NCBI RefSeq assembly: GCF_001447785.1
Contig: NW_015161975.1
Location: forward strand, 165,320-229,319
Origin: Gekko japonicus
Taxonomy: Eukaryota
DNA length: 64,000 nucleotides
Reading direction: 5' to 3'
Numbering within the stretch: position 1 is the first letter of the stretch; every line of letters begins with the position of its first letter. Below are positions 6,401 through 55,654 of the stretch, piece by piece. The notes beneath the pieces were generated by a model that saw only the letters and a list, made by a program, of their open reading frames with translations, did no database searches and was not told where the DNA came from. The position numbers and the translations under genes were made by a program.

Positions 6401-9400
6401 CCTTTCCCTCCCCCTCCCCACAACAGACACCCCCTGGGAGGTAGGTGGGGCTGAGAGAGCTCTTTCCAGGACTGTCCTTGAGAGAACAGCTCTGACAGAG
6501 CTATGACTTGCCCAAGGTCATCCAGCAGCTGCATGTGGAGGAGGAGTGGGGAATCAAACCCGGTTCTCCCAGATTAGAGTCTGTGCACTTAACCACTACA
6601 CCAAACTGGCCCTCCCTCCCAACCCAGAGGGCACAATTAGGCACATTTGCACCAACAAGTTGAAAACAACAGGGTTCTAGAGAAACAGAACAGAAAAGGG
6701 AAAGAAGAGTTTCAGTTCCTAGAGATAGGTCCCGAACAAAGCAAAATAGTTCTTTAGCTGTTGTAGATTTTCCAGGCTGTATGGCCATGGTCTTGGCATT
6801 GTAGTACTTGACGTTTCGCCAGGAACTGTGACTGGCATCCTCAGAGGTATAACACAGGAAGACGGAGTACTCTCTGTGTCAAGGTGAGAAAAAAATGGTA
6901 GGCAGGTAATTTATATCTACTCGGGAAGGTGGGTTAGGGCAGAGTCATTATCTTGTAGGAGTTCCCCAGGCTGTGAACATGCTAATGGTGGAGCTTTCCT
7001 AAGGAGGTTCTTTTGCATATGGATTGTTTCCTGAGAAGGCTTCCTGTTTCCTGAGAAGGTTCTTTTGCATGTGGATTGGCCAAGACCACGGCCAGGCAAC
7101 CTGGAAAATCTACAACAGCTAATGAACTCCGGCCGTGAAAGCCTTTGACAACAAAATAGTTCTGTCGCTGCTGTCCCAAGCAGAGCGAGGAGGGTACAAA
7201 AATCTGCCCAGGACTGCACGGTTTACGTCACAGAGAGAGAACGGGCACATAGCCACCCCTCTCCCCCCCCCCCCGGGANNNNNNNNNNNNNNNNNNNNNN
7301 NNNNNNNNNNNNNNNNNNNNNNNNNNNNNNNNNNNNNNNNNNCCCCCCCCCCCCGGAAGAGAACAAAAACCAGTGGAGCTCCCTGCCTTTCCCCTCCCTT
7401 CTGGGCTGGGCTGGGCAGAAGCTGGTGAGGGTTCCAGAACCGGGCGGGGGGGGGACGGATGGACGGACGACACTAAGGAAAGAGACCCACGGCCTCCCAA
7501 CTGGCACATCTCGCTGGTTACCTGCAGGGCCCTTCTCCTGTAGAAGCAAGCTGTTTTGCTCAGCGACTGTTTTCTGGACATAACTCTTGACCCTCTCGGC
7601 CCGTTCCGCACGCTGCAGAGAACAAGGCAGAGGATTAGCCTTTCGCATAGTTTTGGACGCTTGTTATAGAATCCTAGAATCACAAGAGCTGGAAGGGGTC
7701 CCACAGGCCATCTAGTCCAGCCCCCCTGCTCAGTGCAGGATTAGCCTAGAGCAGGGGTGTCAAACTCATTTGCTAGGAGGGCCGGATCTGACATAAAGGA
7801 GACCTTGTTGGGCCGGGCCATGCGTGTCATAAAATGTAATGCCAGGTAGCGGAGACATAAGGACACAAACACAAAGGGGTTTTTTAACTTAAAAACATGC
7901 TTAAAACATCAGCACTCTTGCAATATTTTGTTTATTTAACAGTGTCTGATAACTGACACCTCTTGCTCTGAATTATTGCATTAAAATGTCTGTGCTGTTG
8001 CAATCTTGAGTATGCTGTTCAGGTGTGTATCTGTAAGCGGCAAACCTACGATGACGCAGCAGCAGCAGAGCTGGAAGAAGCAGAAGACAGCCAGTTCCAC
8101 TGCGGGCCTGATGGAAGCCCTCCAAGGGCCTGATCCGGCCCCTGGGCTGCATGTCTGACACTCCTGGCCTAGAGCATCCCTGACAAGTATATAAAACTTC
8201 CATAAACTCATTCCCCTCTCGCAGCTGTAGAGGCCTGGCCGACGGGCCCTGGAAAGGGAGGGGCCCATACTGACTCACCTGCAGCCTGCTGTACGTCTTC
8301 CTGTACTCTCTCCGCAGTAAGGCCAACTTCTCCTTCAGCTGCAAGACACAGACATTGCAGGGCTGTTGTTAGTGATCACGCCAGAGATTCATCACAAGTT
8401 CTTTTAAAACAACAACTTACACAGGAACTCTGATCTCCACATTGCAACCCATCTAGCCTTGCTCGAGGCACTGGGACCACATGCAGGCACACACCCCATT
8501 ACAAGGGTCAGAAATCCTGTGGAGCCAAGAAAGGCCTTGACTCTTTTGCTCTTAAGGCTTATCTAGTGGACAAGGAGTCACATCCAGGTCTTGTCATCCT
8601 GCAGACTCCTTTAATTGGGACACCGGGGAGCAAGAAGAGGCCAGCTGGGCTGCTGATATGCTCGTGATTCAAGCAGGATGAGACCCAGCTAGAGGTGTAA
8701 AATTTCCAGAAATTTTGAAGCTCGGAAAAAACCCCGTTTTTTTCTGGGGGGAAACGGAATTTTTTGGAAAAATTGAAAAAAATGCTACATTAGCACTTCT
8801 TTTTTCTTTTCCAGGTTGAAAGTCATTCTGTTACTTTAGGACCATAAAATATGACTACGGACATTTTTACTTGGCATGAAATTATAATAACTAGCCTATT
8901 AAAAATACAGTGTATCCAAACAATGATTACCAACAGACTACCTACCCACATGCAAAAACAAAACTGAAACCTTTTTCTTTTCTTGTGACAATCGCACCTC
9001 CTAAAGAAAGGAATGCATCTTGTTCTTGCATTGGAGGGTTCAGTTTGTAACCTAGGACTTGCTTGTCCTCAGTGCACAGAAATTAGATCAATCTGATACC
9101 ATACGTATTTTTTAGAAATGGTTTGGAAAATATTTGAACACCTGGTCCTAAAATATTTTATTCATCATGTTAAAATAAAATGTTCCATAATCAACGCTTT
9201 TCCTTTCCTTTTTTCAATTTTTCCAATTTTCCGGGGGGGGGGGGGGAAAAAAAAAGGTTTCAGGGAAAAAAAGGCTTCAGGGGAAAAACGGGAGAAAATT
9301 TTTCCAGTTTTTTTCCGGGCCTTCACATCTCTAGACCCGGCCCCAATGCCAGATAAGTCATTGCCACTTCAGATGGCCGGGAACCCTCAGAATGGCCAGG

Positions 9401-10574
9401 CAGCAGCTGCAACAGACCAGGTGAAGCTGCAGGCTCAGCCTCGAGTGCAGGGCAGAGAAGTCCCACCACAGGAGCCTGAAGTGGCTGATGTCCACAAACA
9501 CCTGGAGGTGGAAAAATGGAGGGCACCATTTCATACTCTGCAGCTGGTGGGGGGGGGTGGCGGCGGCAGCCTCAGTCTCCTCCTCCCTGGGTTTCAAAAT
9601 GTAACAGGAAGAGGGAGGTGGGCAGAGAGGTCTTTGCCCCTCCAAACTGCGCAAAAGGGCTAATCCTCTGCCTTGTTCTCTGCAGCGTGCGGAAAGAGCT
9701 CAGAGGACCAAGAGTTACGCCAAGAAGTGAAATGGGAGTTCCTTTGCATTTCAAAGAGAGAAACAGAGAGGGAGAGAGAGGTAACCTCCCTGAAGCTAGA
9801 AAAGTCACACAGGCAGGAGAAAAGGTTCTTCTGAGCTGGCTTCCTAGCTGGAGAGAGTTTTTAACAATATAGGTGCCCTGTGAACTGGAGGCTCTCAAGG
9901 GGGAAGTCTTCCCCGCCTCTAAACACCCCGAGGGCTGCTGTTGTGGGAGCCAAACAGAGGAGGGAGAGAGCCGCCTATGATGCCACCCTGACCTCTTTGG
10001 AGAAAAGGTGGTGGTGGGGGAACCACTAGGTGGAAAAAGAGCTTTGTGCCCCCCCCCCAAGGATCAGTCCACAGGTGCAAGGGAACCAGGGAGCAGGATC
10101 AGCGGCAGGCGGAGGCTCCCACTCTGGAACTCCCTGCAACTAGAAAGCCAGCATCAGCGAAACCTCCCTTCCTCCCTGCAGTGCTGCCTTTCTAGATGCA
10201 GGGAATGCTTCTCAAGAGCGACGAACATTCAGGGCAGGGAGCCTCCCACTCGAAGGGGGCAAAGGCCCCTCTCTGCCCACCCATGCTCCCTCTAAGCTGT
10301 GGAGTCCTGTGAGCAAACATTCTACTTTGTGAGCGACCGGCATTAAAGTCATGAGCGAGCAATTTGGCTACGGAATAAATTAGCTTGCTCTGGAGCCCCA
10401 TCTCCTCCTCCCCTTGAGCCTCACGACAACCCCGCAGGGTAGGCTCAGCCGAGAGAGCGAGCGAGAGAGGCGCCCTTGACCCGCGTCCCTCCCGACCCCG
10501 CCTGCACGTGTGAGCGGCCCCACCCACCCACCTACCTACCTACCCACCCCCCTCCTCCTTGCCGGGGCCGCCAT
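483..10574 (-). CDS. PALB2: Partner and localizer of BRCA2, exons 1-7 (3' part lies outside the window)
   Basis: Exons in transcript order: 10574-10548 (tentative, MAAPARRRG), 8338-8279 ([20 protein letters not shown] coiled coil, 60 nt), 7612-7522 ([19 protein letters not shown]), 6321-4882 (ChAM motif [22 protein letters not shown]), 3416-2761 (MRG15-binding [17 protein letters not shown]), 2035-1952 (LQMTSKLK), 644-483 (WD40 start [15 protein letters not shown]...TWSFAE, 162 nt). All introns are GT-AG with consistent phases 0,0,1,1,0,0. Head-to-head with DCTN5 as in mammals. Confidence 0.95.
1319..1637. mobile_element. Non-autonomous hAT (Charlie/Buster-like) element
   Basis: TIRs CAGTGGTGGCGAACCT...AGGCTCGCCATCACTG; exact 8-bp TSD TCTTAGAT at 1311-1318 and 1638-1645. 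Confidence 0.85.
6755..7155 (-). mobile_element. Penelope-like element fragment with inverted terminal segment
   Basis: Ends are inverted repeats (AGCTGTTGTAGATTTTCCAGG...CCTGGAAAATCTACAACAGCT); strongly similar to 34170-34445; carries a hammerhead motif. Confidence 0.8.
6807..6848 (-). ncRNA. Minimal hammerhead ribozyme motif (Penelope-associated)
   Basis: Minus strand reads ACCU CUGAGGA U GCCAG-loop-CUGGC GAAAC GUC AAG. Confidence 0.55.
7752..8166. mobile_element. Non-autonomous hAT element (CAGGGGTGTC TIR family)
   Basis: TIRs CAGGGGTGTCA...TGACACTCCTG; TSD GCCTAGAG at 7744-7751 and 8167-8174. Relatives at 15361-16001, ~31814-32227 and 48511-49260. Confidence 0.85.
8690..9333. mobile_element. 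Non-autonomous hAT-like DNA transposon
   Basis: Ends TAGAGGTGTAA...TTCACATCTCTA; flanks GACCCAGC/GACCCGGC (7 of 8 match); AT-rich interior with subterminal GGAAAA repeats. Confidence 0.7.
9641..9786 (+). pseudogene. Inverted, decayed copy of PALB2 exon 3 with its splice sites
   Basis: 9658-9694 is the exact reverse complement of 7604-7640. It continues as [14 protein letters not shown] and ends in GTAACC at 9781, like the true donor. Confidence 0.85.

Positions 10575-10843: not shown

Positions 10844-17862
<7,019 letters not shown>

Positions 17863-22552: not shown

Positions 22553-34959
<12,407 letters not shown>

Positions 34960-37080: not shown

Positions 37081-55654
<18,574 letters not shown>

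What the first reader, a model, noticed from the sequence alone, without database searches (positions are those of the whole stretch)
7604..9786. Inverted copy of PALB2 exon 3 in intron 1, perfectly complementary to the exon 3 branch point and 3' splice site
Seen: 9658-9694 (GGCTAATCCTCTGCCTTGTTCTCTGCAGCGTGCGGAA) is a 37/37 reverse complement of 7604-7640. That span covers the CTAAT branch-like motif, the pyrimidine tract, the AG and 9 exon bases. Beyond it the copy is clearly diverged, gains a stop (9728-9730), yet still ends in GTAACC like the true donor. Both arms lie in the same PALB2 pre-mRNA, 2 kb apart, flanking exon 2. Inference: a 37-bp stem could mask the acceptor and loop out exon 2, which encodes the BRCA1-binding coiled coil. 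Skipping exon 3 (91 nt) or exons 2+3 (151 nt) would frameshift, giving a possible cis-antisense splicing/NMD switch. Gene conversion between arms is the neutral alternative. The copy is also a sense-oriented potential exon ~1.1 kb upstream of DCTN5.
Basis: partly seen in the sequence, partly recalled or inferred. Interest (0 to 1): 0.7.

Follow-up and report, generated by a model that had tools for sequence, protein, structure and literature searches.

The report
Inverted PALB2 exon-3 copy in intron
The first intron of a gecko's DNA-repair gene PALB2 holds a short backwards copy of the start of exon 3, also present in a second species, which is predicted to fold onto the real splice site but is likely an old copying accident rather than a splicing switch.

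Summary
9658-9694 is a 37/37 reverse complement of the PALB2 exon 3 acceptor, inside an 86-nt block (73 of 87 columns match), in intron 1. It is not an assembly error: a second species carries it on one contig with exon 2, and another sample's contig matches 230/230. The perfect run exceeds even decay (permutation p=0.002), and the duplex is predicted stable (-78 to -135 kcal/mol). But a second inverted copy, of a nearby hairpin, lies 60 nt further on, right behind the donor-like motif, and is equally diverged (17 of 73 versus 12 of 48 substitutions outside the run). That points to one old template-switch insertion. In the second species the arms share no 31-mer, and the region is no more conserved than the neighbouring intron (p=0.40). 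In the one raw RNA run laid, exons 2 and 3 are as deep as exon 4 and the copy has no reads. Skip junctions, NMD and the relatives' letters inside the core could not be seen. Best reading: neutral relic with a re-homogenised core (0.62); selected acceptor-masking switch 0.15.

The parts
9658..9694 (+). 37-nt perfect inverted copy of the exon 3 branch-like motif, pyrimidine tract, AG and first 9 exon bases (upstream arm on the PALB2 pre-mRNA)
9641..9726 (+). whole alignable inverted copy, 73 of 87 columns identical to 7657-7572
   Evidence: organism C contig aligns from 9665 on (X10 record 6)
9727..9786 (+). tail with stop at 9728-9730 and donor-like AGGTAACC at 9779-9786; the middle does not align to exon 3 better than chance
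9787..9859 (+). second inverted copy, of the hairpin at 10128-10204, 56 matches and 17 substitutions; starts at the base after the donor-like motif
   Evidence: (p=0.0005)
10128..10206 (.). strong self-complementary hairpin in intron 1, likely template of the second copy; no Rfam family at gathering score
   Evidence: (z -7.4 and -6.6), (one place in the genome)
7572..7657 (-). source arm: end of intron 2 and first 41 nt of exon 3; perfect core 7604-7640
7522..7612 (-). PALB2 exon 3, 91 nt
8279..8338 (-). PALB2 exon 2, 60 nt, coiled-coil core; lies in the loop between the arms
   Evidence: coiled-coil role from PMC9496955 passages
10548..10574 (-). putative coding part of PALB2 exon 1 as assembled (27 nt, about 18 nt shorter than in two other geckos); donor position inferred
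8690..9330 (.). multi-copy element in intron 1, apparently absent from the organism C contig; limits approximate
   Evidence: depth table; X10 record 6; terminal inverted pairs

Best explanation
9641-9859 is a patch of two backwards copies of nearby sequence in PALB2 intron 1, likely made by one old template-switching repair event and likely decaying without a selected function. Shown: piece 1 copies the exon 3 acceptor region 2 kb away, piece 2 copies a hairpin about 270 nt away, both are in the same reversed orientation, and both are about 25% substituted. Inferred: polymerase copied from 7657 towards the exon 3 donor, then switched to the hairpin. The event predates the split from organism C. 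Inferred: the 37-nt core is identical because the true acceptor is held by selection and the copy was later overwritten from it by conversion or template switching between the arms; plain luck plus the scan's choice of striking cases may contribute. Predicted: the arms can pair in the pre-mRNA when intron 1 is still present, at a cost small enough to be tolerated.
For: Second inverted copy p=0.0005, starting at the base after the donor-like motif. Equal decay: 12 substitutions to 36 matches outside the run vs 17 to 56, Fisher p=0.83. Run of 37 not expected from even decay: permutation 0.002; 0.004 if only one arm drifts at half the outside rate. Organism C: copy region 25 differences in about 229 letters vs 69 in about 515 around exon 2, p=0.40. 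Its two arms lie on two different contigs, and within a Logan run all 31-mers are distinct (PMC12424806 passage), so they share at most 30 perfect bases; its alignment to the copy starts only at 9665, after the CTAAT motif. Organism B's exon 3 contig also runs unbroken over the core. At 7576 organisms B and C carry the letter that the copy has, so there the true exon moved away from the copy without a matching change. RNA run X22: exon 3 depth 15-23, exon 2 about 17, exon 4 start about 15. Precedent: multi-template germline insertions (PMC8421209, section 10 part 1) and homogenisation of inverted arms (PMC8604942 passages).
Against: The perfect run sits exactly over branch motif to +9, where a masking element would need it. 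The copy has lasted through about 13% intron divergence in a second species. A stem of up to 30 perfect bases in organism C is not excluded, and its letters in the core were not shown (40 of 833 difference rows printed). Transitions lean to G.U-compatible on the PALB2 strand: 7:2 in piece 1 (p=0.09), 9:2 in piece 2 (p=0.03), 16:4 together (p=0.006); but repeat pairs elsewhere in the window reach 11:0 and total 121:97. The arm homogenisation in PMC8604942 was sought for spacers of at most 70 nt, not 2 kb. An organism B contig would, if colinear, end near 9687, where a shared 31-mer would cut it; this conflicts with its unbroken exon 3 contig and is unresolved. No conversion event was observed directly.
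Confidence: 0.62

Rival explanations
1. Selected cis-antisense switch: the intron 1 arm pairs with the exon 3 acceptor, causes skipping of exon 3 or exons 2+3, and NMD lowers PALB2, tuned by splicing order or elongation speed.
For: Duplex -78 (37 nt) and -135 kcal/mol (86 nt); 77 of 86 bases paired in the 2.4-kb MFE. Run p=0.002, placed on the splice signals. Present in organism C. G.U lean 7:2. CHM shows that an inverted exon copy can go with skipping (PMC8756506 passages); ATE1 R3 pairs with regions just upstream of exons (PMC7797038 abstract, section 14).
Against: No regional excess conservation and at most 30 perfect bases in organism C; only about 45 of 156 nt of the copy's bin covered in organism B. 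Exons 2 and 3 are not depleted; a single X3 contig appears to carry exons 4, 3 and 2 (same depth value 9.63; inferred). A neighbouring piece of equal age has nothing to do with exon 3.
Confidence: 0.15
2. The core was never rewritten or selected: the true acceptor is constrained, the copy drifted, and 37 unchanged bases are luck that a large scan picks out.
For: P about 0.004 if one arm drifts at 14%. A word look-up of earlier notes listed 7 findings from other genomes, several of them inverted junction copies (unchecked), so such cases recur and are chosen for being striking.
Against: P falls to 5e-6 at the full outside rate of 0.28; the pyrimidine tract of a real acceptor is not usually invariant (own knowledge).
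Confidence: 0.12
3. The copy is a used or once-used plus-strand exon (acceptor 9685, donor 9781) of an antisense or upstream DCTN5 transcript, which kept its splice signals.
For: Both splice signals are kept around a 95-nt middle; the 8-mer at the donor has chance about 4e-4; two of three frames are open; 5 of 10 changes in the first 14 codons are synonymous. An X3 contig covers 9557-9786 while other unique intron bins are empty.
Against: X22 has zero depth in 5 of 5 bins over 9426-10205. The X3 contig (depth 2.6, run only guessed to be RNA) crosses the acceptor by 129 nt unspliced. No upstream copy of exon 2 (p=0.19). The copy changes a glutamate kept in 56 of 56 PALB2 proteins with this motif. 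The donor-like motif also overlaps the start of the direct alignment to the hairpin flank.
Confidence: 0.06
4. The arm is an editing-complementary sequence that directs ADAR to the start of exon 3.
For: A long predicted duplex covers 41 coding bases. X22 shows T>C on the plus strand (A>G on PALB2) at 7534 (6 of 15 reads) and 7568 (6 of 16).
Against: Both sites lie outside the paired block, both equal the letter in DNA of organisms B and C, and X3 lacks them: they look like alleles. Rows for the rest of the block were not printed.
Confidence: 0.03
5. Assembly artefact.
For: Fragmented assembly (191,500 contigs) with an N gap at 7279-7342.
Against: Organism C contig joins the exon 2 region and the copy; an X3 contig matches 9557-9786 with 0 differences.
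Confidence: 0.02

Closest known systems
Complex templated insertions from template switching (MMB-TI, 'complex' class; PMC8421209, abstract and section 10 part 1 of 2 read)
   Same: Short insertion built from more than one nearby template, with reversed copying.
   Different: This one is old and about 25% decayed, so junction microhomology cannot be read with confidence; no empty ancestral site was seen.
CHM intragenic inverted duplication of exon 12 (PMC8756506, passages read)
   Same: An inverted intronic copy of an exon and its splice site in the same pre-mRNA, predicted to form a hairpin over the exon.
   Different: CHM is a 1,752-bp recent pathogenic allele with observed skipping (hairpin itself only predicted); here 86 nt, shared by two species, upstream of the exon, with no skipping seen.
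ATE1 R1R3/R3R4 (PMC7797038, abstract and section 14) and BRD2/BRD3 conserved complementary regions (PMC10789245, abstract only)
   Same: Intronic element complementary to the region at an exon's 5' end, or controlling unproductive splicing through RNA structure.
   Different: Those elements are conserved across vertebrates or mammals and proven by mutagenesis; here no excess conservation was found, there is no known alternative exon, and nothing is tested.
Homogenisation of inverted-repeat arms by template switching or conversion (PMC8604942, passages read)
   Same: Arms of an imperfect inverted repeat become identical over a block.
   Different: Studied in yeast for spacers of at most 70 nt; the spacer here is 2,018 nt.

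Membership tests
Regulatory conserved complementary region (ATE1/BRD2 type) | Complementary arms in one pre-mRNA with a stable predicted duplex at or around the regulated exon | tested here: met
Regulatory conserved complementary region (ATE1/BRD2 type) | Intronic arm conserved above background across species | tested here: inconclusive
   Region 9665-9914 in organism C not above background (p=0.40) and perfect identity at most 30 nt; the core's own letters were not printed
Regulatory conserved complementary region (ATE1/BRD2 type) | Compensatory or wobble-preserving change | tested here: inconclusive
   G.U lean 7:2, p=0.09, within the range of repeat controls; one exon change at 7576 is not matched in the copy
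Regulatory conserved complementary region (ATE1/BRD2 type) | The target exon is alternatively spliced or NMD-coupled | tested here: inconclusive
   Exon depths show no depletion in one raw run; 15 of 1,224 joint rows were printed, all from repeats; no NMD-block data
Regulatory conserved complementary region (ATE1/BRD2 type) | Disrupting and restoring the pairing changes and restores splicing | not testable with these tools
   needs minigene or antisense oligo
Complex templated insertion (template switching) | Inserted pieces match nearby templates | tested here: met
   two pieces, templates 2 kb and about 0.3 kb away
Complex templated insertion (template switching) | Pieces are of one age and adjacent | tested here: inconclusive
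   Equal decay (p=0.83), but the 60 nt between the alignable blocks match exon 3 only in their last 8 bases
Complex templated insertion (template switching) | Microhomology at junctions and an empty ancestral site | not testable with these tools
   too decayed; no outgroup genome held
Plus-strand exon | Spliced reads at both ends | tested here: not met
   zero depth in X22 (12% of the run read); X3 contig unspliced; two samples only

The most novel reading that the evidence does not exclude
A repair accident inside a DNA-repair gene was domesticated in geckos: the inverted exon 3 copy forms a long-range stem over the PALB2 exon 3 acceptor, kept perfect only where the spliceosome binds, and throttles PALB2 through skipping and NMD, possibly together with the neighbouring hairpin pair. 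It would be a datable birth of a structure-based splicing switch from a templated insertion.
Probability: 0.15. Interest if true: 0.7.

Novelty: new member of a known kind. Interest (0 to 1): 0.3.

Why it matters
If neutral, it is a clean example of how a template-switch insertion leaves a ready-made antisense arm against a splice site that an essential-type gene tolerates, and a warning that perfect complementarity over an acceptor is not by itself evidence of regulation. If selected, it would show a splicing/NMD switch on PALB2 arising from an inverted self-copy, with both the origin and the template visible, and testable by gecko genome alignment and one minigene.

Tried and rejected
Longer inverted duplication with a plus-strand exon 2 or flanking introns: none of 7 local alignments of neighbouring parts beat 1,000 dinucleotide shuffles (p 0.19-0.89). 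A repeat family as source of 9720-9880 or of the hairpin: one genomic place each (the search skips very common words). Known RNA family: 3 Rfam matches, all far below gathering score. G.U lean as proof of selection: rejected by repeat controls. Editing at 7534 and 7568: look like alleles. RefSeq isoforms of geckos as evidence of skipping: 6 of 7 members of the Sphaerodactylus cluster keep exons 2-3 and one starts inside exon 4; forms without the N-terminus also occur in Varanus and Elgaria; uninformative. The look-up of sequencing runs listed no RNA holder on record; this is no evidence. Only 4 of 24 listed runs were laid, in one call, and repeats filled the tables; no own-species DNA run was laid, so the expected contig break at the 37-mer was not seen as a positive control. 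Earlier-finding look-ups by place and by sequence were empty. Literature: no paper on this element; the 10 listed of 20 PALB2+gecko hits were, by title and abstract start, cancer or DNA-repair cell studies. No supplements were read.
Full report
Observation. The 37/37 match is exact. It sits in an 86-nt inverted block, 9641-9726 against 7657-7572, with 73 matches, 12 substitutions and 2 gap columns. A search of the own genome with 9600-9830 returned only these two places. The exon 4 translation finds PALB2 proteins, the best four from geckos (49-56% identity). tblastn with two of them gives 11 and 12 ordered matches without stops over the window and the 10 kb before it. The first five residues of the Euleptes protein match at 10574-10560 and the Sphaerodactylus protein matches there too, so the copy lies in intron 1 and exon 2 lies between the arms.

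Extent of the copy. The 3' half of exon 3 does not align to 9727-9810 better than shuffles (p=0.77), nor do exon 2 (p=0.19) or the flanking introns. Only AGGTAACC marks the far end; it occurs twice in the window, at the true donor and at 9779-9786. A second inverted match begins at 9787: 9787-9859 against 10204-10128 (p=0.0005). Its template is a strong hairpin (-37 and -45 kcal/mol, z -7.4 and -6.6), found once in the genome and without an Rfam family. Because the template is palindromic, a direct alignment also scores (p=0.0025). Decay of the two pieces is the same: 12 substitutions to 36 matches outside the perfect run, 17 to 56 in the second piece (p=0.83). Two reversed copies of local templates, side by side and of one age, fit the complex templated insertions described as human germline variants (PMC8421209, abstract and section 10 part 1 of 2). 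That origin is inferred.

The perfect core. Shuffling the 87-column match string gives a run of 37 or more in 0.2% of 200,000 trials. At the outside mismatch rate of 0.28 the chance of 37 clean bases is 5e-6; at half that rate, as if only the copy drifts, 0.004. So something beyond even decay is likely: rewriting of the copy from the exon, selection, or luck amplified by the scan. Predicted duplex energies are -78 and -135 kcal/mol, and 77 of 86 bases pair in the fold of the 2.4-kb pre-mRNA; mean pairing of the acceptor core is 0.998 with the copy and 0.71 without. These folds ignore proteins and co-transcriptional splicing.

Other species. I laid 4 of the 24 listed runs. Repeats swamped the tables: 40 of 833 difference rows, 15 of 1,224 joints and 24 of 255,873 pieces were printed. 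In organism C one 1,096-nt contig carries 8167-8689 (69 differences) and 9665-9914 (25 differences, 22 gap letters), so the copy is real and predates a split with about 13% intron divergence. The copy region is not more conserved than the exon 2 region (p=0.40), a test too coarse to judge 37 bases. A separate contig spans the true acceptor (7469-7684). Logan contigs of one run share no 31-mer (PMC12424806, passage), so these two arms are identical over at most 30 bases; an allele dropped in assembly could differ. The alignment to the copy starts at 9665, just after the CTAAT motif; this may be a real change or clipping. In organism B the exon 3 contig is also unbroken over the core, and only about 45 of 156 nt of the copy's bin are covered. 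Against my reading: a B contig laid on 9389-9552 has 135 more letters, which would end near 9687 if colinear, the place where a shared 31-mer would cut it. I cannot reconcile that with the unbroken exon contig and treat it as open. At 7576 both relatives have the letter that the copy has, so the window's exon changed there and the copy did not follow.

RNA. In raw run X22 (12% read; both mate directions about equally deep at exon 4) depth is 15-23 at five printed sites in exon 3, about 17 on exon 2 and about 15 at the start of exon 4. Depth is zero in all 5 bins over 9426-10205. In X3 (contigs, RNA only guessed) one 405-nt contig of depth 9.63 lies on exon 4, and the same depth value appears on exons 3 and 2, which I read as one spliced form. 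One 230-nt contig of depth 2.6 matches 9557-9786 exactly and is unspliced. So exon 3 is mostly included in steady-state RNA and no plus-strand exon use is seen. This does not exclude a minor NMD-sensitive skip. T>C calls at 7534 and 7568 lie outside the stem and equal the relatives' DNA letters, so they are likely alleles.

Wobble test. Transitions between the arms favour G.U pairs on the PALB2 strand 7:2 (p=0.09), 9:2 in the second piece (p=0.03), 16:4 together (p=0.006). Twelve repeat pairs in the rest of the window give 121:97 with single pairs up to 11:0, and two repeat pairs in PALB2 give 10:8. Strand-biased substitution in transcribed DNA is a known alternative (PMC1559705, PMC2839347; search listing only). 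I count this as weak support for pairing, not for selection.

Mechanism and comparison. Best reading (0.62): an old two-template insertion, decaying, whose acceptor core was later overwritten from the true exon; pairing in the pre-mRNA is possible but tolerated. It works like the CHM inverted exon duplication if it pairs (PMC8756506, passages), and like ATE1 or BRD2/BRD3 elements only if it is also conserved and used (PMC7797038 abstract and section 14; PMC10789245 abstract). The conservation test was coarse and showed no excess, and use is untested, so I do not file it with those. In human PALB2, loss of exon 3 is a PTC-NMD transcript, loss of exon 2 removes the coiled coil, and the wild-type exon 1-3 minigene gives 100% canonical product (PMC9496955, passages). 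I found no paper on this element; the library lacks most subscription papers, and no supplements were read.

Verdict. Real feature, new member of a known kind, most likely a neutral relic; selected switch about 0.15. Interest 0.3.

Noticed in passing
window 10128-10206: Strong 79-nt hairpin in PALB2 intron 1 (z -7.4 and -6.6), one place in the genome, shaped like a pre-miRNA; only a chance-level Rfam match. The raw RNA run had no reads there, and it is not a small-RNA library.
   Followed up: partly
window 10548-10574: PALB2 exon 1 as assembled codes 9 residues where Euleptes and Eublepharis have 15; either a real in-frame shortening of the start of the coiled coil or an assembly error in GC-rich simple repeats.
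   Followed up: partly
window 8690-9330: Multi-copy element with inverted ends in intron 1, apparently missing from the organism C contig, so the loop between the arms is about 0.7 kb shorter there.
   Followed up: partly
window 7576: Exon 3 codon 13 is glutamine here and lysine in organisms B and C and in the copy.
   Followed up: yes
window 7534 and 7568: Two likely polymorphisms in exon 3 at about 40% in run X22, absent from X3.
   Followed up: partly
window 15609-15828 with 28456-28679: Inverted repeat pair whose 11 transitions are all G.U-compatible on the plus strand (11:0).
   Followed up: no
window 29768-30565; 13317-13911 with 51266-52099: Tandem arrays with about 134-nt and about 140-nt units; the second kind occurs twice in inverted orientation.
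   Followed up: no
window 31527-31598: Perfect 30-nt inverted arms with a 13-nt spacer.
   Followed up: no
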